A stretch of DNA of 64,000 nucleotides from assembly GCA_963810205.1 (NCBI GenBank), contig CAWEMP010000013.1, forward strand, positions 14,573 to 78,572, read 5' to 3'. Below are positions 11,316-52,428 of this stretch, in pieces; position 1 is the first letter of the stretch; each line of letters starts with the position of its first letter. The notes under the pieces were generated by a model. It saw only the letters and a list, made by a program, of their open reading frames with translations. It made no database searches and was not told the DNA's origin. The DNA comes from an uncultured Acidobacteriota bacterium (GTDB taxonomy: Bacteria; Acidobacteriota; Thermoanaerobaculia; UBA5066; Gp7-AA6). Both the position numbers and the translations under genes were made by a program.

Positions 11316-11363
11316 TGTCTTGCGCCTGGGATTCGTCGTTGCTCGGGATCACCGGGTTCGAGC

Positions 11364-11711: not shown

Positions 11712-11918
11712 TCCTTGTTCAACTCGATCACTTCGACTCTTCCGGAGAGCAAGAGCCGGGCCCGGTTCGGTCACGGGCCCTCGAGGCCCTGGGGCCGTTT
11801 GGAATCAGAGTGTTGCGAGTTCGACGGAGCCGCGAAGCACGGCTGCGGACCGCGACATCTCGCCAAACCGCGACATTTCGCGGGCGCGGAAAGCTCGGAG
11901 AACTATGATCCGGGCATC

Positions 11919-14528
11919 ATGGGGATGGCGCGGCCGGCTTCGCGGAAGGGGGCCGCTCTCCGTCTGATCGTTCCGGTCCTCGCGATGTCCGCGCTCGCGG
12001 CCGCGCCAGACGACCCGGAAGTCCGTCCGCGCTCCGTTCTCCTTCTCTTCTCGTTGCGGAGCACGGCGGCCTCAGTCGCACCCCTGGAGTCCGCTTTTCG
12101 AACGACGCTCGAGAAGACTCTGGACGCGCCCGTCGACTTTCACGTCGAGTATCTCGATCTTCCGGACTCCGCGAACGTTCCCTACGGCCGGCGGCTCACC
12201 GAGCTCCTGCGAGAAAAGTACGCCGGCCGGCGGATCGACGTGGTGGTGACCGCGCGCATGGAAGCCCTGAACTACCTGCTCCAGAATCGCAAGGCCCTCT
12301 TTCCGGGAGTCCCGCTGGTCTTCACGGACATCGCGCGGCAAGACGTCGCCGACAAGCCGCTGCCTCCGGACGCGACGGGCGCTTTCCTGGTCATGGAAGG
12401 TCAGAAGACGGTCGATGTCGCCCTCGACCTCCATCCGGATGCGGCGCGCATGGTCATCGTGGGCGGCGCCTCGCCGTCGGACCGCAGTACGGAGCCTTTC
12501 GCGCGGCGCCTCATCGAAAAGCGCGCTCCCGACCTGGAGGTCGTTTCGCTCATCGGCCGGCCGCTCGCGGAGCAGCTCGACCGGCTCGCGAACCTGCCCG
12601 AAAAGAGCGTGGTCCTCTTCACGAGTTATCGAGCCGACGCGCAGGGCCGGTCGACGATCGCTCGCGACGTGCTCCGCCGGCTGGCCGCGGTCTCGAATTC
12701 GCCGATCTACGGGGCCTCCGAAACGTTTCTCGGCTACGGAATCGTCGGGGGCGACCTGATTCGGTTCGGGCCGCTCGGGGAGCGGGCCGGTGAGCTCGCA
12801 GCCCGGATCCTGAAGGGCGAATCGGCCTCGGCCATTCCACCGATCGAGCAGTCCTCGAGCCGCCTGATGTTCGACTGGAGGCAGCTCCAGCGCTGGAAGA
12901 TCGACGAGGCCAAGTTGCCGGCAAGAAGCGTCGTGCTCTACCGCGAGAAGACTCTGTGGTCCGAGTACAAGGGACGCATCCTGGGGCTGTTCGCGCTGCT
13001 CGTTGCGCAGACGTTCGTGATCCTCGCTTTGCTTCGGGCGCAGCGCAACCGCCGCCGGGCGGAGGCGGACCTGCGCGCGGCCGAGGCGCGCTACCGCACC
13101 GTCGCGGACTTCACGCACGACTGGGAATACTGGAAGCGGCCGGACGGCTCCTTTGCCTACGTGTCGCCCTCGTGTCTTCGGACGACCGGCTACGAGGCCG
13201 AAGAGCTCTACCGCCGGCCGTCGCTGCCCTCCGAGCTGGTCCTGGAGGAAGACCGCGAGGCCTGGGAGGCGCATCGTTTGGAGGCCCAGGCGGGAAGAGC
13301 TCCGCAGGGTCTCGAGTTCCGCATCCGGGACAAGGACGGACAGGTCCGCTGGATCGAGCACGTCTGCTCGAAGGTCACAGGCGAGGGAGGTGAGTTTCTC
13401 GGTGTCCGGGGGTCGAACCGGGACATATCCCGCCGCAAGCAGTCGGAGGAGGAGCTCCGGCATGCTCTTTCGGAGATCGAGCGGCTCAAGGACCGCCTCG
13501 AAACGGACAATACGTACCTTCGGGAGCAGCTGCAGCCGGAAAAGGGCTTCGAGGGAATCGTTGGAACGAGCGACGCCATGCGCTACGTGATCTCGAAGGC
13601 CCAGCTGGTCGCTCCGACTTCGAGCACGGTACTGCTTCTCGGCGAGACGGGCGTGGGCAAGGACATGGTCGCCCGCGCCATCCATGCGCTGAGTCCTCGG
13701 AGCGCGCGCCCTCTCGTCAAGCTCAACTGCGCCGCGCTGCCAGCCTCGCTCGTCGAGAGCGAGCTCTTCGGACACGAGAGGGGAGCCTTCACCGGGGCCG
13801 TGTTCCTGCGCAAGGGGCGTTTCGAGATCGCCGACGGCAGTACGCTCTTCCTCGACGAGGTGGGCGAGCTGCCGATGGACCTGCAGGCGAAGCTCCTGCG
13901 CGTGGTCCAGGACGGGGAGTTCGAGCGCGTGGGCGGCACCGCCACCCTGAAGGCGGACGTCCGGCTGATCGCGGCGACGAATCGTCACCTCGACGAGGAG
14001 GTCCGCGCTGGCCGCTTCCGCGCGGACCTCTGGTACCGGCTGAACGTGTTTCCGATCACGGTTCCGCCCCTGCGGCAGCGTCGCGAGGACATTCCGCTCC
14101 TGGTCCGTTTCTTCGTCGAGAAGCACTGTCGCCGGATGGGGAAGCAGCCCCTCGAGGTGTCGCGCGGCGTCATGAAGGAACTCGAGGCCCAGGACTGGGC
14201 GGGCAACGTTCGCGAGCTCGAAAGCGTCGTGGAGCGGGCGGTGATCTCGAGCGCCGGGCCGTCGCTCCGCCTCGGTTCCGAGTTCTCACCGGCGCGCCCG
14301 GCCGCGGCGCCGGACGCGGCGGATTCGAACGGCTCGAAGACCCTGACGCAGCTCGAGCGCGACCACATCGTGGCGACCCTGGAGCAGACCTACTGGCGCC
14401 TCGAGGGCGAAGGCGGAGCGGCCGAGCGGCTCGGCATGAACGCGAGCACGCTCCGCAGCCGCATGCGCAAGTACGGGATCCGGCGGCCGGGCAGCCGCCC
14501 GATCGAGATCACGATCCCCAAGCCCTAG
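11919..14528 (+). CDS. Sigma-54-dependent transcriptional activator with periplasmic ABC-substrate-binding-like sensor domain, TM, PAS, AAA+ (GETGVGKD...GAFTGA) and Fis-type HTH
   Basis: C-terminal 869 aa of the 9912..14528 ORF. Start MGMARP with signal/TM; ESELFGHERGAFTGA and the HTH are conserved. Intact. Confidence 0.85.
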   Translation: MGMARPASRKGAALRLIVPVLAMSALAAAPDDPEVRPRSVLLLFSLRSTAASVAPLESAFRTTLEKTLDAPVDFHVEYLDLPDSANVPYGRRLTELLREKYAGRRIDVVVTARMEALNYLLQNRKALFPGVPLVFTDIARQDVADKPLPPDATGAFLVMEGQKTVDVALDLHPDAARMVIVGGASPSDRSTEPFARRLIEKRAPDLEVVSLIGRPLAEQLDRLANLPEKSVVLFTSYRADAQGRSTIARDVLRRLAAVSNSPIYGASETFLGYGIVGGDLIRFGPLGERAGELAARILKGESASAIPPIEQSSSRLMFDWRQLQRWKIDEAKLPARSVVLYREKTLWSEYKGRILGLFALLVAQTFVILALLRAQRNRRRAEADLRAAEARYRTVADFTHDWEYWKRPDGSFAYVSPSCLRTTGYEAEELYRRPSLPSELVLEEDREAWEAHRLEAQAGRAPQGLEFRIRDKDGQVRWIEHVCSKVTGEGGEFLGVRGSNRDISRRKQSEEELRHALSEIERLKDRLETDNTYLREQLQPEKGFEGIVGTSDAMRYVISKAQLVAPTSSTVLLLGETGVGKDMVARAIHALSPRSARPLVKLNCAALPASLVESELFGHERGAFTGAVFLRKGRFEIADGSTLFLDEVGELPMDLQAKLLRVVQDGEFERVGGTATLKADVRLIAATNRHLDEEVRAGRFRADLWYRLNVFPITVPPLRQRREDIPLLVRFFVEKHCRRMGKQPLEVSRGVMKELEAQDWAGNVRELESVVERAVISSAGPSLRLGSEFSPARPAAAPDAADSNGSKTLTQLERDHIVATLEQTYWRLEGEGGAAERLGMNASTLRSRMRKYGIRRPGSRPIEITIPKP

Positions 14529-40046: not shown

Positions 40047-41180
40047 TCAGGTGTTCAGGCCCTGGCGGAGCTCCCGCGCCAGGATCTCGACTGCCGAGCG
40101 GGTGCCGCCCGTCAGCTTCTCCTTCCAGACCGTCTCGGTCTCGAACCGCCGGTCACCGATCGCCTCGGCCCAGGGCCGGAGCGCCGCGTCGAGCTCGCCG
40201 GCGGACCAGACGTCGCCGCCGCGCTTCCTGACCATGGCGATGACGTACGGGACGATGCGGATGAAAGCGCGCAGCGACGTCGAGCTCTTGATCGAGTACT
40301 TGCGCCCGGCGAACGCCGCGGGGAAGGCCCGGGCGGCGGCCTTGAAGTAGTTGAGGAAGAAGCGGCGGGCATTCTCGCGAAACTCCCGGGCGACGCGTCC
40401 GCCGGCCGTGTCGATGGCGGCGAAGACGTCGCGCAGCTCGTCGGCGAGCGAGGCCTGCGTGACGGTGCCCTTGCCGATGCCGAGGACCTTGATCGATCCC
40501 CTCAGGGGCGAGCCCTCGTCCTCGTTCAGGGTGCGGATGACGTCGTGGGCGGCGGCCAGGTTGTCGTCGCGGTAGAGGCGGCGGCCGGCGAGCGAGATCA
40601 GGTGCGACGGGTTCAGCTTCGTGTGCTTGCTGTTGATCGTGACGAAGAGCTCGACGACCTGGTCGGCCGTGAGGCTGTCGAAGACGACGGCCGGCACCTG
40701 GAAGTCGCGCAGACTGTGCTTCTCGGCGAGCTGGTGCAGGGCGAGCAGGCGGTGCTGGCCGTCGAGCGCCCGGAGGATCCCGGACTCCTCGGGGAGCTTG
40801 AGCGAGCCGGCGTCGGCCCGGCCCCCCGAAGGCGCGAACTCCAGGCGCTTCTCCGAAACGAGCAGGACGCTGCCCGGGATGGCCGGAAGGGTCCCGGAGT
40901 CGGCGCACTGGAGGTAGTACGCCACGAGCTCGTCGATCTTCCTCTTGATGATCGGCCTCTGGAAGGCATGTTCCGAGGCGGCGATCCGCTTCTCCAGGAA
41001 CTCCCAGTTGACCCGTCCGGGGGCCGCTTTCGACTTGCCGCGGGTCGTTTCGCTGCCGGGGCCGAAGGAAAGCACCTCGAAGCCGACCAGGGACTGCAGG
41101 TCCGCGCCCGAGAGCAAAGCCTCGTAGAACCGCACTCCAAACTGGTTCAGCCGAAGCGAGGGCACCGAGACCATTGTCAC
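40047..41180 (-). CDS. DGQHR-domain protein (ParB-like nuclease superfamily; DndB/DpdB-like)
   Basis: LRALDGQHRLLAL motif and the ...VTINSKHTKL region. 377 aa. Confidence 0.8.
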   Translation of the reverse strand: MTMVSVPSLRLNQFGVRFYEALLSGADLQSLVGFEVLSFGPGSETTRGKSKAAPGRVNWEFLEKRIAASEHAFQRPIIKRKIDELVAYYLQCADSGTLPAIPGSVLLVSEKRLEFAPSGGRADAGSLKLPEESGILRALDGQHRLLALHQLAEKHSLRDFQVPAVVFDSLTADQVVELFVTINSKHTKLNPSHLISLAGRRLYRDDNLAAAHDVIRTLNEDEGSPLRGSIKVLGIGKGTVTQASLADELRDVFAAIDTAGGRVAREFRENARRFFLNYFKAAARAFPAAFAGRKYSIKSSTSLRAFIRIVPYVIAMVRKRGGDVWSAGELDAALRPWAEAIGDRRFETETVWKEKLTGGTRSAVEILARELRQGLNT

Positions 41181-41681: not shown

Positions 41682-42434
41682 GTGAAAAGAGCGCTGCCGC
41701 TGTCTCTTCTGCTGCTCGCCGGCGCCGCCGCCCGCGGCGTGCCCGCCGACGAGAACGTCTATGCCTCGCATCTGATGGTCGACCAGGACGTCGTGGTCTC
41801 GGCGCGCATCACGGGCATCGTCGAGTCGATCGCGGTCGACCGGGGCACCGCGGTCGCGCAGGGCCAGACGCTGGCGACGCTCGACACCCGCGCCCTCGAT
41901 GCCGACGTGCGCGAGGCCAAGGAAGACATGGACCTGAAAAAGGCCGTGTACGACCGGGCGCAGGCCCTGGCGAGCTCGAAGGTGATGAGCGTCCAGGACC
42001 TCGACGAGAAGAAGGCCCAGTACGCCGTCGCGGTCGCCCGCTGGGAGAAGACGAAGACGCAGCGCGACTACGCCGTGATCCGGGCGCCGTTTGCGGGCGT
42101 CGTCACCGAGAAGTACGCCCGGATCGGCCAGAAGGTCGTCGAGGACGGCAGCGAGCCGCTCTTCAAGATCACCGCGACCGAGCCGCTGCTCGCCCGCATC
42201 TACCTGCCGGAGGACCGGCTGCTCCAGGTCCGGGTCGGCGACCGGGTCGAAGTCGTCCCGGAGCGGTTCCCCGACGCGAAGACGACCGGGGAGATCCAGT
42301 TCATCAGTCCCACCGTCGACGCCGCGAGCGGGACCTTCCAGGTCGTCGTGCGCGTCCGGCGCGAACCGGGCAAGACGGTGTTGCGACCCGGGACGGCGGT
42401 CAAGGTGCGCTTCCAGGCGCCCGCGGCGCATTAG
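41682..42434 (+). CDS. HlyD/RND membrane-fusion-protein family periplasmic adaptor
   Basis: Signal peptide, coiled coil, and IRAPFAGVV lipoyl-like motif. Confidence 0.75.
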   Translation: MKRALPLSLLLLAGAAARGVPADENVYASHLMVDQDVVVSARITGIVESIAVDRGTAVAQGQTLATLDTRALDADVREAKEDMDLKKAVYDRAQALASSKVMSVQDLDEKKAQYAVAVARWEKTKTQRDYAVIRAPFAGVVTEKYARIGQKVVEDGSEPLFKITATEPLLARIYLPEDRLLQVRVGDRVEVVPERFPDAKTTGEIQFISPTVDAASGTFQVVVRVRREPGKTVLRPGTAVKVRFQAPAAH

Positions 42435-42465: not shown

Positions 42466-43176
42466 ATGGCGCCGAGACCCTCCCGCTCCACGGCGCGCCT
42501 GCGCTCGGCGCTCGACCGGATGCTGGTCCACGACGTGAAGAACGTGTCGTTCCGGCTGCGGCTCCTCCTCTCGAACATCGACGAGCACTGGGAGGACGCC
42601 GAGTTCCGGAAGACCGTGCGGGAACTGCTGGCGTCGACGGTCGAGCGTCTGGAGGGCCTCGCCGGCCGGTTCGTCGAGCGCCAGGACGCGGTGCTCGTCA
42701 AGATCGAGCTCGACGTCAACGAGCTCCTGCGCAAGGTGGCGGACAAGCCGACCCGCCGCGGCCACCGGTCGACGGGAGCCGGGCCCTCGCTCTCGTTCGC
42801 GCTCGGCGCCGTTCCTCGCATCTGGGGCGACCCCTTCTACCTCGGCGATGCCTTCGGAAGCCTCCTCGAAAACGCCTGGGAGGCGGCGATCCCCGAGGGC
42901 AAGGTCGTTCTCCGGAGCTACACCGGGGGCACGACGCGCCGGCCCCGCGCCGTCGTGGAGTTCATCGACAACGGCGCCGGAATGACGCCCGAGTTCCTCC
43001 GGGACCGCCTCTTCCAGCCCTACGAGACGACCAAGCCCCAGGGCGTGGGCCTGGGGCTCGCGACCGCCGGCCAGATCGTGAAGTTTCACCGGGGCTCGAT
43101 CCGCATCCTCTCGCAGTCGGGCGGGGGGACGCTCATTCGCCTCTCGCTGCCGGGAATTCCGGGAGGACCGGGTTGA
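42466..43176 (+). CDS. Soluble histidine kinase-like protein (H-box LVHDVKN; HATPase_c with DNGAGM, GLGL)
   Basis: C-terminal 236 aa of the 42091..43176 ORF. Confidence 0.65.
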   Translation: MAPRPSRSTARLRSALDRMLVHDVKNVSFRLRLLLSNIDEHWEDAEFRKTVRELLASTVERLEGLAGRFVERQDAVLVKIELDVNELLRKVADKPTRRGHRSTGAGPSLSFALGAVPRIWGDPFYLGDAFGSLLENAWEAAIPEGKVVLRSYTGGTTRRPRAVVEFIDNGAGMTPEFLRDRLFQPYETTKPQGVGLGLATAGQIVKFHRGSIRILSQSGGGTLIRLSLPGIPGGPG

Positions 43177-44558
43177 GCGAGACGGCCGCGCGGCCTTCCG
43201 GGCGGATCGTGATCGTCGAGGACGATGCCGACCTGCTCGAGCAACTGACGTGGGCCCTCAAGGGAAAGTTCGCCGTCTCGGCGGCCCGCGACGCGACGCA
43301 CGGCCGCGTGCTCTGCGAGTCGGAGCCCGATCTCTACCTCTTCGACCTGCGCCTGCCGCCCTCCGGGCAGGTGCAGGAGGGCCTCGATCTGCTGCGCCAC
43401 GTGCGCCAGCGCGATCCGGAGGCGACGGTCGTGATGATGTCGGGCGAGGGCGAGCGGCGATACGCGCTGCAGGCGATTGCGCTCGGCGCCTTCGACTTCT
43501 TCCAGAAGCCGATCGATACGGCCGAGCTCCTGCTGATCCTGAATCGCGCGCTCGAGCGCCGGCGGCTCCTCGCCGAGAACCGGGAGCTGCGGCAGGCCGC
43601 GCAGCCGGCGAGGCCTCTCGACCGCCTCGTGGGCCGCAGCGCCGCCGATGCGTGCCCTGGCGCGGGACATCGAGAGGGTCGCGGGAAGCGACGCCACGGT
43701 GCTCATCTTCGGCGAGAGCGGCACGGGCAAGGACCTCGTCGCGCAGTCGATCCACGCCGCCGGCCCCCGGCGCGACCGGGCGTTCGTGCCGGTCAACGCC
43801 TCGGCGCTTCCGGAATCGCTCGCCGAGGCCGAGCTCTTCGGTCACGAGAAGGGCGCGTTCACCGGCGCGATCGCGTCGCGGCCGGGCCGGTTCGAGCTCG
43901 CCCAGGGCGGCACGCTCTTTCTGGACGAGATCGGCACGCTCTCGCCGGCGGTCCAGTCGAAGCTGCTGCGCGTTCTCGAGAGCCGCGAGGTCGAGCGCGT
44001 CGGCGGCCGGCGGCCGATCCCGGTCGACTTCCGGCTGATCTCGGCGACCAACGAGGACCTCGAGGCGCGCGTCGCCGCGGGCACGTTCCGGGAGGACCTC
44101 TTCTATCGCATTCACACGGTGCCGCTTCGCATCGCGCCGCTGCGCGAGCGGGGCGAGGACATCGCGCTCCTCTCCGAGCACTTTCTCGCGCTCTTCGGGC
44201 AGCGGCACGGGAAGGTCGACCTGCGCCTGTCCGCGGGTGCCCTCGCGCGGCTCCAGGCTCATGCCTGGAAGGGAAACGTGCGCGAGCTGCAGCACGTCAT
44301 CGAGATGCTCGTCCTCTTCTCGCGACGCCCCCGAGATCGGCGAGGAGGAGCTGCCGAGGGCCCTCCGGGAGGGGCCGGCGGCGGTCGGGACGCGCCGCGG
44401 CGCCGGCGAAGGACTTCGCGTCGGCCGTCGAGGAGTTCGAGCGCCGGACGCTCTCGGCGGCGATCGCGGCGGCCGGGGGCGTGAAGGCGGAGGCGGCTCG
44501 ACGGCTCGGGCTCGACGCGAACCAGATCAAGTACCTGTGCCGGAAGTACGGGCTCTAG
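43173..44558 (+). CDS. Sigma-54-dependent response regulator (REC + AAA+ + Fis HTH); two compensating frameshifts
   Basis: The REC domain and HTH lie in the 43173 frame. The AAA+ core (GESGTGKD, GAFTGA) lies in the 43648..44484 frame. Confidence 0.7.
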   Translation: MSETAARPSGRIVIVEDDADLLEQLTWALKGKFAVSAARDATHGRVLCESEPDLYLFDLRLPPSGQVQEGLDLLRHVRQRDPEATVVMMSGEGERRYALQAIALGAFDFFQKPIDTAELLLILNRALERRRLLAENRELRQAAQPARPLDRLVGRSAADACPGAGHREGRGKRRHGAHLRRERHGQGPRRAVDPRRRPPARPGVRAGQRLGASGIARRGRALRSREGRVHRRDRVAAGPVRARPGRHALSGRDRHALAGGPVEAAARSREPRGRARRRPAADPGRLPADLGDQRGPRGARRRGHVPGGPLLSHSHGAASHRAAARAGRGHRAPLRALSRALRAAAREGRPAPVRGCPRAAPGSCLEGKRARAAARHRDARPLLATPPRSARRSCRGPSGRGRRRSGRAAAPAKDFASAVEEFERRTLSAAIAAAGGVKAEAARRLGLDANQIKYLCRKYGL

Positions 44559-44682
44559 TCGGTTGATAAATTCACCCTCCGGTGGGACAAAATTTCAACC
44601 AAACGGGCTTTTGCCGTTTGCGTCTAAATTCGCAAGCCCTTTTGCGACAGTGTTTAGTCGTTTTCTGCTGGGATCCGAATTC

Positions 44683-44699
44683 TGGCCTTCTTCTTGCCT
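44683..44699 (+). promoter_or_regulatory. Candidate sigma-54 (-24/-12) promoter TGGCCttcttcTTGCC
   Basis: GG and GC spaced exactly as in the TGGCAC-N5-TTGC consensus, about 30 nt before ATG 44730. Confidence 0.45.
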
Positions 44700-44729
44700 C
44701 TTCTATTCGGCAACAGAAGGAGGATCAAC

Positions 44730-45160
44730 ATGGGTAATGAAGTCAAGATCAAGCTGACGGACGCTCAGAAATCCAAGATCAAGGAAGCCACGGGCAAGGA
44801 CCTCCCGGAGATCCGCGTCGAGACGTTCGGCTCGAGCCCGGCCTCGATGTCGGCGAGCTCCCCGCTGAAGGCCACCCGCGCCATGCGCGCCGCCAAGTCG
44901 CTGCGTGCCGCGAAGTCGTTGCGCGCCGCGAAGTCGCTGCGTGCCGCGAAGTCGCTGCGTGCCGCGCAAGTCGCTGCGTGCCGCGCAAGTCCCTGCGCGC
45001 CGCGAAGTCCCTGCGCGCCGCGAAGTCGCTGCGTGCCGCGAAGTCCCTGCGCGCCGCGAAGTCCCTGCGTGCCGCGAAATCGCTGCGTGCCGCGAAGTCC
45101 CTGCGCGCGGCCAAGTCGCTGCGTGCCGCCAAGTCCCTGCGCGCCGCGAAGTCCCTCTAG
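44730..45160 (+). CDS. Small protein: 55-aa Lys-rich N-terminal region followed by about 16 tandem KSLRAA hexapeptide repeats; two indels in the repeat array
   Basis: GAAGGAGGA RBS. MGNEVKIKLTDAQKSKIKEATGKDLPEIRVETF... The 44978..45160 ORF reads (KSLRAA)n to the TAG. Confidence 0.55.
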
Positions 45161-46062
45161 GAGTCGTCCCTTCCCCGGGAACGCCCCGCTTCGGCGGGGC
45201 GTTTCTTTTTCACCACCAGACGAGGGTCTGGATCCAGTGGCCGACGACCCGGCCACGTGCGCCAGAGGAACGACTTGCGCCCCAGCCGGATCTTGGCCTG
45301 CCCGCTCATCCCGGGCAGGTCTCGCCCGTCGGCGTTGTCGAACTGCACCACCGCGATGAATCGCTCCGGCGACTCCGACGGCCGCATCGTGGTCTTCGAG
45401 CCGTCGGACGGTCCGGGGACGGTCTCCGCGGCCGCGCCGATGCGCACGATCTTTCCGTGCAGGATCGAGGCCGGCCGCGCCGACAGCTGCAGGGACACGG
45501 GCGAGCCGACCCGAAGATAGGAAAGGAGCCGCTCGCTGACGGGGATCTCGGCCTTGAGCCGGTCCGACCTCGCCGACTTCGGCGATCAGATCTCCGGTCC
45601 TGAGGAAACGTCCCTGGAGGTCCTGGACGCGGGGCGTCAGGAGGCGGCCGTCGATCGGGCTGGCCACCGAGAGCCGGCGGAGGCGGTCCTCGTCCCGTGC
45701 GAGGGCGAGCGCCGAGGCAGCCTCGCGCTGCTCGGCGCGGTACACGCCGGAGGCGTCGCCGGCCTGGCGCTGGCGGCTGGCCTGCTTCAGGAGGCCTTCC
45801 CGCTCGGCCGTCGCGCCCGCGATTCCTCGAGGCGACGGCGGGGCTCGCCATGAGCGCAACGGCTTCTCCGGCTCGCACCGGGTCGCCCTCCCCGGCCTTC
45901 ACGGAGACGACGATCCCGTCTTCCGGAGCCTCGAGCCGCACCGACGTCCACGGCGCGAGGATGGCCGTCGTTTCGAAGCGTCCACGGCGCCCAGGGCACC
46001 GCGACGAGCAGGAGGACGGCGGCTGCGATGGACAGGACGGCGACACGGGCGCGTCGCGACAT
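45157..46062 (-). CDS. HlyD-family secretion protein (copy b); at least 3 frameshifts
   Basis: N-terminal TM MSRRARVAVLSIAAAVLLLV. Fragments SPIDGRLL, LPGMSGQAKIRL in other frames. Confidence 0.45.
45181..45210 (+). terminator. Rho-independent terminator (acgccccgc ttcg gcggggcgt + TTTCTTTTT)
   Basis: Seen in sequence, 20 nt after the TAG. Confidence 0.7.
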
Positions 46063-47424
46063 GAGCAGCTCCTTCTTGTCGAGGTAGACGAGGCGGACGC
46101 CCTGCAGAACCGTGCGGACGCTGCTTGCGAAACAGGCGGAGCAGGGTCAGGGCGAGCAGGACGCCGGCGACGTTGGGAAAGTACTTCGCATAGAAGTTGT
46201 AGAAGAGGTGCGCCGATGAACAGCATGATCACAACGACGAAACCGAGCGCCAGCGGCCCGTAGATCGAGGAAGATCCGGCGCTTGCGGCGCGAGAGCACG
46301 GGGACCTCGACGTTGAGCCGCAGGACGTGCTTCTTGAAGAGGGCGGCGAGGTACTCGAACGAATCCTCGCGCAGCTCCGGGATCTCGAGGACGCTCGCAA
46401 GGGCGTAGTAGCCGTCGATCTTGATCGAAGGGGATTGATGTTGAAGAAGAGCGTCGAGATCCCGGTGAAGAGCATCAGCTTGTACGACAGCTCGTGGAGA
46501 AGCGTGTCCGGGTAGGAGACGACCCAGAGCGCGACCGCGAAGCAGCAGATGATGGCCTCGATGTACATGCCGGCGAGCATGACCCAGAGCCGGTGCCACT
46601 TGCTTCTCGAAGAGAAGGGCGTCGGTCGTGTCGCAGTAGAAGGCCGGCATGAAGTAGAGCAACGCGACGCCGATGTCGTGCACCTCGCCGCCGTAAAACT
46701 TGCACGACGTAGCCGTGCGCGAGCTCGTGGATCAGGCCGATGAAGCAGAGAATGAAGAAGAACTGGACCGCGTCCCAGAAGGGCTTGCGCAGGAACGCGT
46801 AGAGCTCGAGGGTCTGCTCCCAGATGGGCGTCGAAGTGGCTGACGATGACCCCGGTCATCATCGCGATCAGGACGAGCGAGATCGCGACCGTCGGGGGCC
46901 GCCAGATCCAGCGGACGTACTTCTGCGTGCGGTCGAGGAAGCGGTTCGGGTCGAAGACGTGGAACGGGATGAGGAAGATGTCGAACCCCTCGGCCTTTTG
47001 CTCCGCCGTCCGCCGTCGGGCGTCCTTGATCCGGGCGAACTCCTGGAGGTTGCGCTCCGCGGCGGACTGCTCGAGCAGGTCCATGCCGTGCAGCATCTCC
47101 TCGTATTCGGGGACGAGGGAGGTCTCGATGACTTCGTTCGGGAACTGGGCCTGGTAGACGGCGTGGATCTCGGACAGCGTCCGCGTCCCGTCGAAGAGGC
47201 TCGATCAGGCCCCAGGTGCCCTCGTCGAAGCTGTAGTACTTGGTGGTGTCCGGGTTCTTGACGACCCACTGAACCTCGCCCATCTGGACGATGCGGCGCG
47301 CGATGAGGTTCTTCTTGAGCGCCGGCCGGTCTCCGGCCCGGCCGTGCTTCGCCGCGAGCGCGGCGGCGCCCTTCTCGAGGGGCGCCGCGGAGACGAGGGT
47401 CGACGCGCGCGCGACGGCGCTCAC
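46060..47424 (-). CDS. Peptidase M50 (site-2-protease-like) family membrane protein with HELAH motif; at least 2 frameshifts; C-terminal boundary unresolved
   Basis: GTG start overlapping the upstream stop (GTGA). FFILCFIGLIHELAHGYV...FYGGEVHDIGVALLYFMPAFYCDTTDA. Lower-coordinate boundary approximate. Confidence 0.45.
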
Positions 47425-48330
47425 GGGAGGAGCGGCCAGATCTTGTGCCAGAGGTAACGCAGGGGCTTGCGAAAGAGCACCGCGCCGAGCCGGCGCGTCC
47501 CGACGGAGACCTTGCCTTGCCCGAGCATGCCGGACTTCGGAGCGCCTCCGCGGGATTCTCGACGCGGACCTCGGCGATGACGAAGCGCTCTTCGCCCTCC
47601 TCGCGCAGGGCGGCGCCGACGCGCTGCGACCTGGCCTCGGAAGACGCGTGTCGGGAAGGGATTCATCTTGAGCGCCACCGGCTGCCCGGCCTTGAGCAGC
47701 GCCGACGTCGGCCTCGGGGACCGCGACCTCGGCCGTGACGCTGTCGACGTCGGCGACGACCGCACAGCTCGGCGCCCGCGACGAGCGCCTGTCCGACGCG
47801 CTGCTCGATGTGGGGCGTGACGAGGATGCCGGCGATCGGCGCGCGGAGGACGGTCTTCGCGAGCTGTTCCGTCTCGAAGGCGAGTCGTGCCGCGGCCTCG
47901 TCGCGGCGGGAGCGCGCCTCGAACATCGACGCGGCGTCGCCGGCTTCCGTGTGCCGCGCGATGTCGCTCTGGGCGATCCCCAGCGTCGCCCGCGCCTCCG
48001 CCATCGACGCCAGGTAGCTTCTCGTCCTTGAGCATGGCGATCGACGTCGCCGGCGGCGACATGGTCGCCTTCCCGGTGCTTCACTTCGCGGACGATCCCT
48101 TCGACGCCGGCCGTGACGGAGGCCCGGCGCCCGGGCAGCACGCGTGCCGGCCCGTCGACCTTAGGGGCCACGGCAGAACGACGAGGGCGAGGATCGCCGC
48201 CAGCGTTCCGATGAGCCCAGGACTGGCGCCGGCGCTTCGGGATCCCCTGGAGCTTTCGGCGCTTCTCGAGCAGCGGCTCCCAGAAGCCGGCGAGCGGGAC
48301 GTGCTTGTAGAGCTGGGCGTTGCGGACGGC
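47421..48330 (-). CDS. HlyD-family secretion protein (copy a); frameshifted
   Basis: C-terminus ...GMLGQGKVSVGTRRLGAVLFRKPLRYLWHKIWPLLP. Lipoyl-like VTAGVEGIVREVKHREGDHV upstream. Upper-coordinate boundary approximate. Confidence 0.4.
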
Positions 48331-49867
48331 GACGGTCGCCTGGTTGACGAGGATGGAGAGCAGGTCCCGCGTCTCCTCGTCGAAGATCAGGGCCTCCTGG
48401 CTCTCGAACCCGAGCACGCCGAGCTTGCCTTCCTCGTCCTTGAGCAGCACGCCGAAGAAGGAGCGCAACCCCGTTTCCGCGAAGATCGCGCGGAACTTCT
48501 CCTCGGTCTCGGGCCGGTCCGCGGTGATGGCTCCGTCCTCGGTCTGGGTGACGATCGCGTCGCGTCCCCGAGAGGAACACCCACTGGAGGAGGTCGTCCA
48601 TGCGGCGCACGCCGGCGTCCTTGCGGTCGATTTCGGCCGCGCCCGAGACGGCGCCCAGGCGCAGCTTTCCCTTGGCGTGGATGGCGATGGCGCAGCGGTC
48701 GTACGCGACGAGCGCCGCGGTCGCGTTGACGATCGTCTGCATGACCTTGTCGAGGTCCAGCGTCGCGGTGATCTCGCGGCTGACGGCGAGGAGCGCGTCG
48801 AGCTCTTCGACCTTCTTCTCGGCCTCGTGCTGGCGGGCGATACGCAGGGCCCGGACGGCCTGGCGGGCGATGTCGTGCGAGCAGCTCCTCGTCCTCCGCC
48901 GAGAACTCGGGATGCCGGCCGCGCTTGTTCGCGACGACGAGCGCGCCGATCGAAATCTCGTCTTCCACGAGGGGACGCGGCGAGCACGGAGCGGACGGGG
49001 TAGAGCGGGTTTTCCGTGGAGACGGGATCGGACTCGGGGATGCGGTTGCGGCGCATCGGGTTCTGGTCGGCGATGACGTCGCCGACGACCGTGCTGCCGA
49101 CGTGGTCGGGGGGCGATTCGACCTCGTAGTTCTCGTTGATCGCCATGGCCGCGACGGTGACGTCGTCTTCGCCCTCGAGGATCCAGAGGCAGGCCGCCTC
49201 GCCCGTGACGAAGTCCGCGGCCTTGCGAACGATCAGCTCCGACAGCTCGTCCGACGTCGATCGTCGAGCCGAAGGCCTTGGACAGGTCGTAGAGGTTCGT
49301 GAGCCTCTCGATCGCGTGGAGCATGCCGACCGTCTTGCGCTCGGACCGGAGGGCCCGTCCGAGGGCCGGCGCGGCCTGCTCGAGGAAGGCCTCGAGGCGG
49401 GCGAGCGCGACCTCGGCGTCGGGCATCTCGGTGAAGAAGATGGCCAGCAGCCCGACGACCAGTCCCTCGGCCTCGAGCGGCACCGCGATGCACGCCCGAT
49501 AGCCGGGGAGGCCGCGCACGAAGGGGTCGCTGGTGGCGAGCTCTTCGCCGGTCAGCACGATCGGCTGACGGTCGCGAACCAGGTCGCGGATGTAGCCGGA
49601 GTCCCGCGGCGCCGACCGCCTCAGGAACTTCTCGACGCCCTCGCCTTCGGCGCCGATGCAGAGGAAGAGGGGATGGACCGTGTCGGGCGCCCAGAGCAGC
49701 GTCGCGTCCGCGCCCGCCATCGACGCGCTCCAGCGCGCGGCCCAGCCGGAGGTCTGGGCGAGGTTCTCGCAGAGGGCGAGCTCCGCCAGGGCCGAGACCT
49801 GCGCGTCGGCCCGGTCCTTCTCGGTCTCGACCGGCTCGTCGTCCGGTCCCTGGGGTTCGTCCGCCAA
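48330..49867 (-). CDS. Multi-GAF-domain protein (at least 3 GAF-like segments across frames); several frameshifts
   Basis: Start MADEPQG...; GAF-like blocks in three frames. Lower-coordinate boundary approximate. Confidence 0.45.
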
Positions 49868-49904
49868 CGGTCTCCTTCCGGAAACGACAACCGGAGCTCC
49901 GGGA

Positions 49905-50240
49905 TCAGAAGCTCGAGAGGGCGGCCTCCATGTCCTCGTGGATCTCGAAAACCGAATCGAGCTTGGTCATCTGAAGGAGCTTGCGAATCTGGGGGCCGGC
50001 GTTCAGGAGCTTCGTCTGCCCGCCTTCCTTCTGCGAATTGGTCAGCGCCCGCACCAGAGCGCCCAGTCCCGAGCTGTCGAGGAACCCGACCGCCGAGAGG
50101 TCGACCAGCAGGTTCACGCGCCCCTCTTCGAGGAGCCTCGTGACCGTCTTCTTGAAGTTGGTCTCGGCGTCGCCGATGACCAGGTCTCCCGTGACCGTGA
50201 CGATGGTCACGCTTCCGTCGTCTCGCGTCTCCAGATCCAT
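49905..50240 (-). CDS. STAS-domain anti-sigma-factor antagonist (SpoIIAA-like)
   Basis: 111 aa with VDLSAVGFLDSSGLGAL. Confidence 0.75.
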   Translation of the reverse strand: MDLETRDDGSVTIVTVTGDLVIGDAETNFKKTVTRLLEEGRVNLLVDLSAVGFLDSSGLGALVRALTNSQKEGGQTKLLNAGPQIRKLLQMTKLDSVFEIHEDMEAALSSF

Positions 50241-50392
50241 AGAAGTGGGCGGATTATGTCAAACAATCGGATTTGCAAGACCGGGAGCGTGAAACCCGGC
50301 CATGGCGGCGGCATCGAAGGTGCGGGAGTGAAGCTGTGAGCCCTTTTGGCCGGATTCGGACGGGACGGGGAAAGATCCGCCCGGGCCCCGGA

Positions 50393-50640
50393 ATGAGCGC
50401 CGGCGAGCGCCCGTACATCACTACTTCCTCTACCTCTATCTCGAGGGCGAGCTGCCCGAGGACCGCCGCCGCGAGTTCGAGCGCCACCTCGGGGTCTGCG
50501 ATCCGTGCCGGTACATCCGCCAGTACCGCGAGTCGATCGAGCTGGGCCGGGCGGCCTTCCGCGGCGACGACCTTCCGCGGACGAGGCGGCCCCCGAGGAG
50601 CTCGTCCAGGCCATCCTGCGCGCACGGATGAAGGGGTAGG
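50393..50640 (+). CDS. Possible zf-HC2 anti-sigma-factor-like small protein (H-x3-C-x2-C); frameshifted
   Basis: HHYFLYLYLEGELPEDRRREFERHLGVCDPCR in a frame offset from the ATG. Very tentative. Confidence 0.3.
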
Positions 50641-50680
50641 TTGGCCCGTTCCGTACGCGAGCGTGGATAGAATTCGGGCC

Positions 50681-51684
50681 ATGCCGATCGATCGCCGGAC
50701 CCTCCTGTCCCTGGCCGCCGCCTCGCTCGCACACTCCGGGTTCACATCCGCGCGGCCGGGCCCGACGAAGACCTCCGAGGTCAAGACCGCCGGGATCCGC
50801 CTGATCCCGGTCGACGGCAGGTACAAGGTCTGGACGAAGAAGCTCGGCAAGGGCCCCATCCAGATGCTCACGCTTCACGGCGGGCCGGGCGTCACCCACG
50901 AATACTTCGAGTGCTTCGAGGACTTTCTTCCGCAGGCTGGCGTCGAGTTCTACTACTACGACCAGCTCGGCTCCTTCTACTCCGACCAGCCCGACGACCC
51001 GTCCCTCTGGACGATCGACCGTTTTCGCGAGGAGGTCGAGCAGGTGCGCGCGGCACTCGGCCTGGAGAACTTCATACCTCTACGGCCAGTCATGGGGCAG
51101 CATGCTCGCGATCGAGTACGCGCTGAAGTACCAGAAGCACCTGAAGGGCCTGGTGCTCTCGAGCATGACGGCCTCGATCCCGTCCTACATGGCCTACGTC
51201 GCGAAGCTCCGCGCCGCGTTGCCGAAGCCGATGCTCGCCACACTCGAGAAGTACGAAGCCGAGGGCAAGTACGACGCGCCCGAGTACCAGGAAGCGATGT
51301 ACGAGGGCGTCTACAAGCGCCACGTCTGCCGTCTCGACCCGTGGCCGGATCCCGTGGCGCGCGCCTTCAAGCACATCAACAACCAGGTCTACGGAACGAT
51401 GCAGGGACCCAACGAATTCGTCGTGACCGGGACCTTCAAGGACTGGGACCGCTGGAACGACCTCGCGAAGATCAAGGTTCCCGACGCTCGTCGTCGGCGC
51501 GACGTACGACGAGATGAACCCGGACGACATTCGCCGGATGGGGACGCTCTTGCCGCGCTCCCGGGTCGCGATCTGCGAGAACGGCAGCCATCTGGCCATG
51601 TGGGACGACCAGGAAGCCTACTTCCGGCATCTCGTGGCTTTCCTGCAGGACGTCCAGGCCGGCCGGTTCCCGTCCCGGGCTTAA
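50681..51684 (+). CDS. Proline iminopeptidase-like alpha/beta hydrolase (S33) with Tat signal; 2 frameshifts
   Basis: MPIDRRTLLSLAAAS..., LTLHGGPGV, GQSWG nucleophile elbow. C-terminus in a third frame. Confidence 0.7.
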
Positions 51685-52008: not shown

Positions 52009-52428
52009 ATGAAGAAGGGCGATCTGACGGTGAAGGCGATCGGTCTCGCGGTGGCCGGTGTTCTCGCGGGCTCGCAGCTGCTCTCGGCTCTGCCGAAGAA
52101 CGAGTCGAAGGCCGGCGGCAAGAACGGCAACGCGAGCCAGGACGCCAAGGACAAGACGGCCGCTTCCTCCGACAAGCACGTCTGCAAGGGCATGAACTCG
52201 TGCAAGGGGAAGGGCGGTTGTAAGAGCGGCGACGCCGGCTGCGCGGGCAAGAACTCCTGCAAGGGCAAGGGCGGCTGCGCTTCGGCCGACATGAAGCACT
52301 CCTGCAAGGGCATGAACGCGTGCAAGGGCCAGGGCGGCTGCAAGAGCGGCGAGAACGGCTGCGCCGGCAAGAACTCCTGCAAGGGCAAGGGCGGCTGCGC
52401 GGTTCCGGTCGCGAAGAAGGCGGCCTAG
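52009..52428 (+). CDS. Cys-rich RiPP precursor candidate: Sec signal peptide plus two near-identical 6-Cys modules (12 Cys), bufferin/BUF_6/12Cys-like
   Basis: AAAGGAGACAGGG RBS. MKKGDLTVKAIGLAVAGVLAGSQLLSALP. Modules HVCKGMNSCKGKGGCKSGDAGCAGKNSCKGKGGCA and HSCKGMNACKGQGGCKSGENGCAGKNSCKGKGGCA. Confidence 0.7.
   Translation: MKKGDLTVKAIGLAVAGVLAGSQLLSALPKNESKAGGKNGNASQDAKDKTAASSDKHVCKGMNSCKGKGGCKSGDAGCAGKNSCKGKGGCASADMKHSCKGMNACKGQGGCKSGENGCAGKNSCKGKGGCAVPVAKKAA

What the first reader, a model, noticed from the sequence alone, without database searches (positions are those of the whole stretch)
44616..45210. Sigma-54 promoter plus candidate UAS driving a small protein made of about 16 tandem KSLRAA hexapeptide repeats
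The pattern TGGCC-N6-TTGCC has exact -24/-12 spacing, with a TTGCG-N8-CGCAA palindrome about 65 bp upstream. The adjacent gene is a sigma-54 response regulator with its kinase.

The ORF has a Lys-rich N-terminus followed by perfect 18-bp DNA repeats encoding (KSLRAA)n, then a strong terminator. It is a highly cationic protein with repetitive Ala/Leu content. It could be a nucleoid- or polyanion-binding protein, a disordered or amphipathic envelope-active protein, or a contingency (repeat-number-variable) locus.

Two 1-nt indels inside the array currently break the frame.
Basis: partly seen in the sequence, partly recalled or inferred. Interest (0 to 1): 0.75.

Follow-up and report, generated by a model that had tools for sequence, protein, structure and literature searches.

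The report
Sigma-54-driven leader-plus-repeat precursor protein gene
This is a real small gene, switched on by a sigma-54 promoter, that encodes a conserved 40-residue leader fused to a species-specific tandem-repeat tail. It sits next to a membrane protease with a leader-peptide-binding domain, so it looks like the cargo of an undescribed peptide processing or export system in soil Acidobacteria.

Summary
A TGGCC-N6-TTGCC sigma-54 promoter, a strong ribosome-binding site, an ORF with a Lys-rich N-terminus and 14.7 KSLRAA units, a strong terminator and two frame-breaking extra C's are all present.

The two C's lie in a patch of about 18 frameshifts (43.6-51.5 kb) that also breaks conserved neighbouring genes. 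All 17 nucleotide differences between units are synonymous in the KSLRAA frame, and the stop codon matches that of relatives. The breaks are therefore most likely consensus errors.

The gene belongs to an undescribed family, found at 135 loci, nearly all Thermoanaerobaculia/Acidobacteriota. Residues 1-40 are near-invariant. The tail is a tandem array whose unit differs between lineages (3-28 residues).

Every species-level locus keeps one module: adaptor, kinase, sigma-54 regulator, this gene, then a leader-binding-domain/intramembrane-protease/adaptor fusion, a GAF-adaptor protein and a STAS protein.

The promoter is conserved in 60 of 61 loci.

Best reading: a leader-guided precursor that is cleaved, and probably exported, by the adjacent protease. 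No tailoring enzyme is present. The product's function is unknown.

The parts
41682..42434 (+). Small periplasmic membrane-fusion (HlyD/RND adaptor) protein with an N-terminal signal-like segment. First gene of the regulator operon.
   Evidence: Pfam HlyD_D23 1.9e-23 and NCBIfam RND_mfp 1.8e-43. Intact by tblastn, 74% identity to the L001 ortholog. Present in 54 of 55 species-level loci.
42466..43176 (+). Soluble histidine kinase of about 234 aa. No transmembrane or sensor domain. Resembles the PrsK C-terminus.
   Evidence: HATPase_c 1.5e-14; NCBIfam PEP_his_kin 6.9e-35, below cut-off. Intact. No hydrophobic segment in the L001 ortholog.
43173..44558 (+). Sigma-54-dependent response regulator (REC + AAA+ + Fis-type HTH). 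Broken by at least 3 frameshifts in this assembly.
   Evidence: Response_reg 2.7e-18, Sigma54_activat 3.5e-66 and HTH_8 3.2e-08 are found in different frames. tblastn pieces lie in frames 3/1/2/3. The intact 460-aa ortholog scores 1.2e-128 against PEP_resp_reg, below cut-off.
44561..44600 (+). Conserved pair of TTGA-N7-TCAA-type sites (GGTTGATAAATTCACCC ... GTGGGACAAAATTTCAACC). Probable binding site of the response regulator (upstream activating sequence).
   Evidence: Visible in almost all loci. Conserved columns in the 35-sequence alignment A4. 91 of 113 distinct upstream regions have at least 1 site, against a background of 0.07 per 130 nt. The site pattern, with up to 2 mismatches, matches four places in the window (1.44 expected by chance); only this one lies beside the promoter motif.
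44618..44635 (.). Not conserved. It lies where relatives carry an A/T-rich 'TAAAnnACTGAAAAcA' stretch that could be an IHF-like bending site.
   Evidence: Present here only, in 1 of 113 upstream regions. Alignment A4 shows the mid-region consensus cAAAnnACTGAnAA. The IHF assignment is inference.
44683..44698 (+). Sigma-54 (-24/-12) promoter TGGCCTTCTTCTTGCC.
   Evidence: Motif conserved in 60 of 61 loci at the same distance from the start codon. TGG and TTGC columns are invariant in A4.
44730..45160 (+). Coding sequence of the leader + (KSLRAA)n protein, 142 aa once the two extra C's are removed. Leader residues 1-40 are 44730-44849. The ribosome-binding site AAGGAGG is at 44717-44723.
   Evidence: Homologs P0001-P0010. 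135 related loci. Leader column conservation.
44895..45160 (+). Tandem array: 14 units of 18 nt (KSLRAA) plus a terminal KSL and the stop codon.
   Evidence: Tandem Repeats Finder, period 18, 14.9 copies. Unit table. All 17 differences are synonymous.
44967..44967 (+). Extra C (first +1 insertion).
   Evidence: 19-nt unit 44949-44967.
44986..44986 (+). Extra C (second +1 insertion).
   Evidence: 19-nt unit 44968-44986.
45177..45210 (+). Intrinsic terminator (13-bp GC-rich stem, UUCG loop, T run), 17 nt after the stop codon.
   Evidence: The same hairpin follows the gene in L001 and L002.
45210..47433 (-). Convergent gene for an RRE (PqqD-like leader-binding domain) + M50 site-2-type intramembrane metalloprotease + membrane-fusion-domain fusion, about 733 aa. 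At least 5 frameshifts here.
47427..49867 (-). GAF-GAF + transmembrane segment + membrane-fusion-domain protein, about 814 aa. At least 6 frameshifts here.
49908..50240 (-). STAS-domain protein (anti-sigma-antagonist type). Intact.
   Evidence: tblastn 86% identity. STAS 2.7e-21 in the ortholog.

Best explanation
The locus is a monocistronic, sigma-54-dependent gene for a 142-aa precursor-like protein. A near-invariant 40-residue leader (MGNEVKIKLTDAQKSKIKEATGKDLPEIRVETFGSSPA...) is followed by a lineage-specific tandem-repeat tail, here (KSLRAA)14-KSL.

It is the variable cargo gene of a seven-gene module conserved in Thermoanaerobaculia: membrane-fusion adaptor, kinase, sigma-54 regulator | this gene | RRE-M50 protease-adaptor fusion, GAF-adaptor protein, STAS protein. 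RRE means RiPP recognition element, a PqqD-like leader-peptide-binding domain.

Proposed mechanism:
1. The phosphorylated regulator binds the paired TTGA-N7-TCAA sites at 44561-44600. It activates sigma-54 RNA polymerase at 44683-44698, possibly helped by a bend in the A/T-rich spacer. Transcription stops at the hairpin at 45177-45210.
2. The leader is captured by the RRE domain at the cytoplasmic N-terminus of the adjacent intramembrane metalloprotease.
3. The protease cuts near the conserved [FL]G-x-x-PA boundary (residues 33-38).
4. The repeat tail is released, probably across the envelope through the assembly of three membrane-fusion-domain proteins.

Status of each step:
- Shown by sequence and comparison: the gene, its reading frame, the promoter and upstream sites, the module and the domain architecture.
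- Inferred: regulator-site binding, leader-RRE binding, cleavage, export, and what the tail does.

The two extra C's are most likely consensus errors in a locally poor stretch of the assembly.
For: Coding and reading frame:
- All 17 inter-unit differences are synonymous, against 31% expected.
- Across 61 arrays there are 348 synonymous and 208 non-synonymous variant codons, 63% against 28% expected.
- The frame-2 stop gives the same ...AAKSL end as relatives L008 and L064.
- Short-read contigs carry intact ORFs.

Frameshift patch:
- The regulator (at least 3), protease (at least 5), GAF protein (at least 6) and a hydrolase outside the module (2) are all broken, yet each piece keeps high identity to its ortholog.
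- Ten flanking genes are intact.

Family:
- 55 species-level genome loci and 80 metagenome loci were found.
- 97 distinct leaders align without gaps over residues 1-40; conservation falls to about 25% after that.
- The repeat unit ranges from 3 to 28 residues.

Module:
- The protease fusion is found beside the gene in all 52 loci whose downstream flank was captured. The adaptor, kinase and regulator are found in 54 of 55 (L059 is the exception). The module persists where the outer flanks differ.

Regulation:
- The promoter motif is present in 60 of 61 loci.
- The paired upstream sites are conserved.
- No other such promoter or site cluster occurs at a fixed position in the module.

Protease:
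- HExxH and NxxPxxxxDG motifs are present.
- daptide_HExxH 1.3e-50 covers residues 52-428; the YydH/LiaK epipeptide maturation protease model scores 1e-09.
- JGI names it 'putative peptide zinc metalloprotease protein'.
- The N-terminal domain is predicted as three strands followed by three helices.
- Pfam PqqD is the only hit on the N-terminus.

Literature:
- The daptide protease is an RRE fused N-terminally to a site-2 protease, and is assigned the leader-removal step (10.1101/2023.03.08.531785).
- The M50 protease EpeP is thought to both cleave and export its peptide (PMC10885120).
Against: - No tailoring enzyme, ABC/RND/MFS pump or outer-membrane channel gene is part of the conserved module.
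- The protease gene is convergent with this gene, not co-transcribed.
- Tails of 50-190 residues made of low-complexity repeats are unlike known RiPP or bacteriocin cores.
- AlphaFold2 gives only a short confident leader (pLDDT 82-84 for residues 1-20) and an unconfident tail.
- Leader-RRE binding, cleavage and export are all untested.
- Site-2 proteases often release their products into the cytoplasm.
- All organisms are uncultured MAGs.
- The pseudogene alternative for this particular genome cannot be excluded without reads.
Confidence: 0.55

Rival explanations
1. Cytoplasmic polycation. The Ala/Lys/Arg-rich repeat tail acts inside the cell as a histone-H1-like nucleoid, polyphosphate or RNA binder, comparable to AlgP, Hc2 or BpH1. 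The leader would be a pro-sequence or membrane tether, removed by the protease as SpoIVFB does for pro-sigma-K.
For: - Tail composition is A 30%, K+R 23%, S+T 17%, P 4%, with no Cys or Trp.
- Net charge is +5 to +37 in 105 of 111 proteins.
- Repeat number varies between near-identical alleles. From my own knowledge, the same is known for AlgP and Hc2.
- Site-2 proteases usually release products to the cytoplasm (established knowledge).
Against: - One clade has acidic or neutral pentads (DLSAQ, DLTAQ, DLKAE) with net charge -7 to -21, while keeping the same leader and the same downstream protease, GAF-adaptor and STAS genes. The regulator operon was not found upstream in L059.
- Three membrane-fusion-type periplasmic domains in the module point to an envelope function.
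- There is no recognisable DNA-binding domain.
Confidence: 0.15
2. The module is a genuine pseudogene cluster in this genome. The two insertions and the neighbouring frameshifts are real, so the repeat gene is dead here.
For: - About 18 frameshifts are confined to 43.6-51.5 kb, and they hit four of the seven module genes.
- The two insertions are identical, occur in adjacent identical units, and are not in a homopolymer. One insertion followed by duplication of the unit would explain that.
Against: - Frameshifts also hit the hydrolase outside the module, while the adaptor, kinase and STAS genes are spared.
- The broken pieces are not visibly more diverged from their orthologs than the intact neighbouring genes, so there is no sign of excess substitution.
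- All variation within the array is synonymous, including the units after both insertions.
- Six of the long-contig MAG loci have frameshifted arrays, whereas nearly all the metagenome contigs that reach the stop codon carry intact ORFs.
Confidence: 0.12
3. Multi-core precursor. Each repeat unit is a product, and the array is cut into many copies of a short lineage-specific peptide that acts as a signal or an antimicrobial. This would be the bacterial counterpart of yeast alpha-factor or fungal ustiloxin-type precursors.
For: - Purifying selection acts on each unit within an array, while units turn over radically between lineages.
- The closest relative, L028 at 82.8% nucleotide identity, has 9-mers (GKSIAGRAA) and not 6-mers.
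- A dedicated two-component system sits next to the gene, as at peptide-pheromone loci (knowledge).
Against: - There is no conserved cleavage motif between units.
- Only one protease is present, and it is guided by the leader.
- Units as short as 3-5 residues, and units rich in Pro/Gly, make unlikely ligands.
- No membrane sensor kinase is present.
Confidence: 0.12
4. Phase-variable contingency gene, in which frameshifting inside the array switches expression on and off.
For: Two +1 insertions lie inside a tandem array. Unit number varies between strains.
Against: - The unit is 18 nt, so slippage preserves the frame.
- The insertions are not in a mononucleotide or short-unit tract.
- Equivalent breaks occur in non-repetitive neighbouring genes.
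Confidence: 0.04

Closest known systems
Daptide biosynthetic clusters (MpaA precursors with MpaP, an RRE fused to an intramembrane site-2 protease)
   Different: - No MpaB/C/D/M tailoring genes.
- No ELExMEAP leader motif, no hydrophobic core and no invariant C-terminal Thr.
- The protease carries an extra C-terminal membrane-fusion domain.
- The score is below the family cut-off (172.7 against 300 bits).
- The host is a diderm Acidobacteriota, and control is by sigma-54.
Epipeptide system YydF/EpeX with the M50 protease YydH/EpeP
   Same: An M50 membrane protease processes, and is thought also to export, a small ribosomal peptide (PMC10885120). The match to RiPP_HExxH_LiaK is 1e-09, and JGI uses the yydH-type name.
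   Different: There is no radical-SAM epimerase and no ABC transporter. The cargo is a long tandem-repeat polypeptide.
Unmodified (class II) bacteriocin and peptide-pheromone loci with a dedicated two-component system
   Same: A conserved leader, a hypervariable mature part, no tailoring enzyme, a dedicated processing and export machine, and an adjacent two-component regulator that drives the peptide gene (architecture only; from knowledge).
   Different: - No double-glycine leader and no C39-peptidase ABC transporter.
- The regulator is a sigma-54 enhancer-binding protein.
- The kinase is soluble.
- The mature part is 50-190 residues of repeats.
Bacterial histone-H1-like repeat proteins (AlgP, Chlamydia Hc2, Bordetella BpH1)
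   Same: Ala/Lys-rich short tandem repeats whose number varies between strains (from knowledge). The composition of most tails is similar.
   Different: Those proteins have no conserved cleavable leader and no linked protease and adaptor module. One clade here is acidic. Arg is as common as Lys.
ZraP/Spy/CpxP (LTXXQ-motif periplasmic proteins; zraP is driven by sigma-54 and ZraR)
   Same: A small gene next to a sigma-54 two-component system. The leader contains LTDAQK..IKE, which resembles an LTXXQ motif.
   Different: There is no signal peptide and only a single motif. Pfam LTXXQ is not significant. This is motif-level resemblance only.

Membership tests
Sigma-54-dependent promoter | GG at -24 and GC at -12, separated by exactly 10 nt, within a TGGCAC-N5-TTGCW-like context | tested here: met
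   TGGCCT-TCTTC-TTGCC at 44683-44698.
Sigma-54-dependent promoter | Conserved at the same position in orthologous loci | tested here: met
   Present in 60 of 61 loci, against a background of 0.01 per 130 nt. TGG and TTGC columns are invariant in A4.
Sigma-54-dependent promoter | A cognate enhancer-binding protein, with conserved binding sites about 80-150 bp upstream | tested here: met
   The adjacent gene encodes REC + Sigma54_activat + HTH_8. Paired TTGA-N7-TCAA sites lie at 44561-44600. Binding itself was not tested.
Sigma-54-dependent promoter | Transcript start that depends on rpoN | not testable with these tools
   Needs RNA data.
RRE-dependent ribosomal peptide precursor (RiPP-type logic) | Short ORF with a conserved leader and a hypervariable core | tested here: met
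   Residues 1-40 are near-invariant across 97 leaders, then conservation falls to about 25%. Tails differ radically.
RRE-dependent ribosomal peptide precursor (RiPP-type logic) | A protein with an RRE (PqqD-like winged-helix) domain is encoded next to it | tested here: met
RRE-dependent ribosomal peptide precursor (RiPP-type logic) | A post-translational tailoring enzyme in the cluster | tested here: not met
   The seven conserved genes contain none. The flanks of the distant locus L050 are unrelated.
RRE-dependent ribosomal peptide precursor (RiPP-type logic) | Leader removed by a cluster-encoded protease | not testable with these tools
   The protease has intact catalytic motifs. Cleavage is inferred.
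Daptides | ELExMEAP leader motif, aliphatic core, invariant C-terminal Thr, and MpaB/C/D/M genes | tested here: not met
   None of these is present. Criteria are taken from 10.1101/2023.03.08.531785.
Double-glycine-leader bacteriocins | GG/GA cleavage motif with a C39-peptidase ABC transporter | tested here: not met
   No ABC transporter or C39 domain is in the module. G34 is conserved, but not as a GG motif.
Histone-H1-like repeat proteins | Uniformly basic Lys/Ala-rich repeats that bind DNA | tested here: inconclusive
   105 of 111 tails are basic, and 6 are acidic. DNA binding cannot be tested here.
Phase-variable contingency locus | Repeat unit whose gain or loss shifts the reading frame, or a promoter spacer repeat | tested here: not met
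   The unit is 18 nt. Alleles differ by whole units.
Spy/CpxP/ZraP (LTXXQ) | Signal peptide plus paired LTXXQ helices; a Pfam LTXXQ or Metal_resist match | tested here: not met
   There is no signal peptide. Pfam gives no hit at E up to 10 for the family's own leaders; only P0076, a protein with two tandem leader-like motifs (not a typical family member), scores E = 2.
Known RNA families | Rfam model match at gathering score | tested here: not met
   Only terminator-like hits below threshold.

The most novel reading that the evidence does not exclude
This is a previously unrecognised kind of ribosomal peptide system. A sigma-54-induced, leader-guided tandem-repeat polypeptide is cleaved by an RRE-site-2-protease-adaptor fusion and moved out of the cell through a protease-based conduit of membrane-fusion proteins that has no ABC, RND or MFS pump. 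Its rapidly turning-over repeat unit would serve as a multi-copy, lineage-specific product: a signal, an antimicrobial or an envelope/matrix polycation. That would make it a bacterial analogue of eukaryotic multi-repeat propeptides.
Probability: 0.2. Interest if true: 0.85.

Novelty: new variant of a known kind. Interest (0 to 1): 0.68.

Why it matters
If the reading is right, three things follow.

1. It defines a new precursor family, with no Pfam or NCBIfam model, and a new protease architecture (RRE + M50 + membrane-fusion domain). Both occur in a widespread but uncultured class of soil Acidobacteria.
2. It extends leader-guided peptide processing to long, unmodified, hypervariable tandem-repeat cargos.
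3. It gives a clean, fully specified sigma-54 regulatory unit: regulator sites, promoter, one gene and a terminator. This unit can be rebuilt in a heterologous host.

The sharp contrast between an invariant leader and a repeat unit that changes even between relatives about 80% identical at the DNA level makes it a useful case for studying how repeat-encoded peptides evolve.

For genome annotation, it is also a warning. Frame breaks in such arrays in long-read MAGs are probably artefacts and hide the gene.

Tried and rejected
- Pfam and NCBIfam on the repaired protein and on seven leaders at E up to 10 gave nothing significant. The hits EntC/L23 and P0012/P0075 are low-complexity or LTDAQK-motif coincidences.
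- PADLOC showed no defence-system model on module proteins. Only the DndB/DpdB-like neighbour hit.
- Rfam returned only sub-threshold terminator look-alikes.
- phmmer against PDB with the protease N-terminus found nothing. The fold search was needed.
- AlphaFold2 on the small protein gave a short confident leader only and an uninformative tail.
- My first promoter pattern used N8 by mistake and missed the site. This was corrected.
- Literature searches found no description of this family or module. TMcin is unrelated.
- Exact look-up of window proteins to identify the source contig failed.
- I looked for further sigma-54 promoters or regulator sites in the window and the module. Nothing convincing turned up: the upstream-site pattern has three weak matches elsewhere, the strict promoter pattern has one (39884), and neither coincides with the other motif. 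Across related loci, further sigma-54-like motif clusters appeared at about -5000, +4500 and +250-500; I put these down to conserved coding or repeat sequence and did not examine them further.
- I rejected a ribbon-helix-helix or LTXXQ identity for the leader. The resemblance is at motif level only.
Full report
**1. What is in the sequence**

The window is 68% G+C. The interval 44616-45210 and its upstream spacer contain the following features.

- TGGCCTTCTTCTTGCC lies at 44683-44698 with the canonical GG-N10-GC spacing of sigma-54 promoters.
- AAGGAGG precedes an ATG at 44730 by 6 nt (bases 44724-44729).
- The ORF has a Lys-rich N-terminus.
- From 44895 there are 14 units of 18 nt, each encoding KSLRAA, followed by KSL and a TAG stop at 45158-45160.
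- A 13-bp GC-rich hairpin with a T run begins 17 nt after the stop (-25.9 kcal/mol, z = -3.1).

Two units are 19 nt long because of an extra C, at 44967 and at 44986. The reading frame therefore steps 0->1->2, and the stop codon is in frame 2.

The palindrome TTGCG-N8-CGCAA is at 44618-44635 and is rare by chance (0.02 expected per window). The repeats are not perfect at the DNA level. There are seven unit variants that differ at 17 positions, and every difference is synonymous in the KSLRAA frame, where 31% would be expected.

**2. The frame breaks are probably not biological**

I ran tblastn with intact orthologous proteins against the window. The result shows which genes are broken.

| Gene | Frameshifts in the window |
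|---|---|
| Response regulator | at least 3 |
| Protease fusion | at least 5 |
| GAF protein | at least 6 |
| Hydrolase outside the module | 2 |
| Ten flanking genes | 0 |

All the breaks lie between about 43.6 and 51.5 kb. Each broken piece keeps identity to its ortholog that is not visibly lower than for the intact neighbouring genes.

Three further points agree with this.
- The units after both insertions still show only synonymous variation.
- The frame-2 stop reproduces the ...AAKSL C-terminus of relatives that carry KS[LM]RAA units.
- Related arrays are frameshifted in six of the long-contig MAG loci, whereas nearly all the metagenome contigs that reach the stop codon carry intact ORFs.

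I conclude that the breaks are local consensus errors. A recently decayed module in this genome remains possible (about 0.12). The two insertions are identical and sit in adjacent identical units, which one insertion plus a unit duplication would also explain.

**3. The gene belongs to a family**

The repaired protein found ten homologs. They share a near-identical N-terminus and have quite different repeat tails.

Pattern scans recovered 55 species-level loci in genome contigs. All but one are titled Thermoanaerobaculia, Acidobacteriota or Acidobacteria; the exception is a bin labelled Acidithiobacillales. A further 80 metagenome loci were recovered.

Across 97 distinct leaders, residues 1-40 align without gaps. 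M1, V5, I7, L9, T10, Q13, K14, K16, I17, T21, G22, E27, V30 and G34 are each conserved in at least 94% of leaders, and A38 in 90%. Conservation falls to about 25% after position 40.

The tails are tandem arrays with unit lengths from 3 to 28 residues. Nine, six, eight and five residues are the commonest lengths. Examples of units:
- KSMRAA, KAMRAQ, ARNVQA, AAPRGA (6 residues)
- GKSIAGRAA (9 residues)
- TKAPLRAG (8 residues)
- ANTPR, KVAP, SARQ (4-5 residues)
- ARRATKAVLARKIT (14 residues)

Tail composition is A 30%, K+R 23% and S+T 17%, with no Cys or Trp. Net charge is +5 to +37, except in one clade with the pentads DLSAQ, DLTAQ or DLKAE, where it is -7 to -21.

Within arrays, variant codons are 63% synonymous against 28% expected. 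Each unit is therefore under purifying selection. The unit nevertheless changes between close relatives. The nearest locus, L028 (82.8% nucleotide identity over 9 kb), has GKSIAGRAA 9-mers where the window has KSLRAA.

Seven pairs of contigs with flanks at least 99% identical differ by whole units, for example 3 against 7 copies of KAPTRAGA. Collapse of repeats in short-read assemblies could contribute to these differences.

An exhaustive phmmer search with the leader against 1.8 billion cluster representatives found only 71 clusters, nearly all from this family. Pfam, NCBIfam, PADLOC and Rfam have no model for it.

**4. Regulation**

The relaxed promoter motif TGG[CT]-N7-[TA]TGC occurs within 130 nt of the start codon in 60 of 61 loci, against a background of 0.01. 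The remaining locus has N8 spacing.

What is conserved is a pair of sites of the form GGTTGAnAAAnTCAACC, separated by about 4-10 nt. They lie directly after the regulator's stop codon, at 44561-44600 in the window, roughly 85-125 bp upstream of -24.

Between these sites and the promoter, relatives carry an A/T-rich 'TAAAnnACTGAAAAcA' stretch. It approximates the IHF consensus on the opposite strand. That assignment is inference only.

No other convincing sigma-54 motif or site of this kind occurs in the window. The upstream-site pattern has three weak matches elsewhere, and the strict promoter pattern has one more, at 39884; neither coincides with the other motif. Across related loci, the only other clusters of sigma-54-like motifs lie at about -5000, +4500 and +250-500. 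I attribute these to conserved coding or repeat sequence, but I did not examine them further. The small gene therefore appears to be the regulator's only target within the module. The conserved terminator makes it monocistronic.

**5. The module**

tblastn with the proteins of locus L001 shows the same gene order in the species-level loci. The protease fusion lies beside the gene in all 52 loci whose downstream flank was captured. The adaptor, kinase and regulator are found in 54 of 55; L059 is the exception. The order also holds in the distant group, where the outer flanks differ.

| Position | Gene | Approximate size |
|---|---|---|
| 1 | Small adaptor (membrane-fusion type) | 250 aa |
| 2 | Soluble kinase | 234 aa |
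| 3 | Sigma-54 regulator | 460 aa |
| 4 | The repeat gene | 83-227 aa |
| 5 | Protease fusion (convergent strand) | 733 aa |
| 6 | GAF-GAF-transmembrane-adaptor protein (convergent strand) | 814 aa |
| 7 | STAS protein (convergent strand) | 111 aa |

The 733-aa protein has the following features.
- It carries HEFAH and NxxPxxxxDG motifs and about five hydrophobic segments.
- It matches the NCBIfam daptide intramembrane metalloprotease model at 1.3e-50 over residues 52-428. It matches the YydH/LiaK epipeptide protease model at 1e-09. Both scores are below the family cut-offs.
- It ends in a membrane-fusion domain.
- Its cytoplasmic N-terminus read like a PqqD-type leader-binding domain. Pfam PqqD was the only hit on it (E 0.0013, below threshold).
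- AlphaFold2 predicts three strands followed by three helices there, at pLDDT 70-86.

The daptide paper describes exactly such an RRE fused N-terminally to a site-2 protease and assigns it leader removal. A review notes that the M50 protease EpeP is thought to both cleave and export its peptide.

**6. Mechanism proposed**

- Shown: a sigma-54 promoter with conserved regulator-type sites drives one gene. That gene encodes an invariant leader and a variable repeat tail. A protease with a leader-binding domain and three proteins with membrane-fusion domains are always next to it.
- Inferred: the regulator binds the paired sites. The leader docks on the RRE as an added strand; AlphaFold2 gives an extended segment plus a helix at residues 11-21. 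The protease cuts near the conserved [FL]G-x-x-PA boundary. The tail is released, probably across the envelope.
- Unknown: what the tail then does.

**7. Comparison with known systems**

- The logic is that of leader-guided ribosomal peptides.
- The system fails the RiPP criterion of a tailoring enzyme, and it fails every daptide-specific feature. I do not file it as a daptide or as a RiPP in the strict sense.
- It differs from double-glycine bacteriocins: there is no GG motif and no C39 ABC transporter.
- It differs from H1-like repeat proteins: it has a leader and a module, and one clade is acidic.
- It differs from ZraP/Spy: the resemblance is at motif level only.

I found no description of the family or the module in the searchable literature.

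**8. Verdict**

The promoter is right. The upstream activating sequence is mis-assigned. The frame breaks are probably artefacts. The functional guesses are only partly apt.
- The locus is a new variant of a known kind of system. It is interesting mainly for three things: the invariant-leader / hypervariable-repeat architecture, the RRE-protease-adaptor fusion, and a sigma-54 unit that is clean enough to test directly.

Noticed in passing
window 52009-52410 (+); L001 15797-16354; L002 15133-15757: A BufA2-like bufferin precursor homolog lies here (NCBIfam Cu_RiPP_BufA2 1.7e-13 for the L001 protein; 74% identity in the window). In relatives it is followed by an MbnB/TglH/ChrH (DUF692) gene. This is a separate RiPP cluster about 7 kb downstream of the repeat gene.
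   Followed up: partly
window 43600-51500: About 18 frameshifts are confined to this 8-kb patch, and many sit next to CG dinucleotides. Genes on both sides are intact. This looks like a locally poor consensus, for example low coverage, strain mixture or a systematic long-read error.
   Followed up: partly
window 40053-41174 (-): A DndB/DpdB-like gene (PADLOC DpdB 1.8e-11 for the ortholog) has no visible dnd or dpd partner genes nearby. It is conserved next to the module only in the nearer group of relatives, together with LemA, an M48 peptidase and a 114-aa unknown.
   Followed up: no
window 9912-14528 (+), C-terminal part about 13100-14528: A second sigma-54 enhancer-binding protein (PAS + Sigma54_activat + HTH_8) is encoded in the same window. 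The long ORF is probably an over-extension typical of high G+C sequence.
   Followed up: no
L058, L059, L135-L140: A clade carries acidic or neutral pentad tails (DLSAQ, DLTAQ, DLKAE, DLTTQ) on a slightly divergent leader. In L059, no kinase or regulator was found within 6 kb upstream.
   Followed up: partly
P0076 (66 aa, from the representative search): This small protein has two tandem leader-like motifs (RLxIxLTDDQQKQIxDATGKSVT, twice). It gives weak, non-significant hits to ribbon-helix-helix antitoxins (ParD, TacA) and to RiPP leader models. The leader motif may therefore be a more widely used module.
   Followed up: no
L084 (Ga0207645_10189251) 219-758: The leader is fused to an unrelated tail of about 140 residues with a hydrophobic C-terminus. 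This is either a chimeric contig or a different cargo type.
   Followed up: no
L028, L029, L034, L035, L036, L049: Arrays in these long-contig MAG loci are also frameshifted or read through the stop. Repeat arrays of this family are a recurrent trouble spot in these MAG assemblies, and automatic annotation is likely to miss them or call them wrongly.
   Followed up: partly
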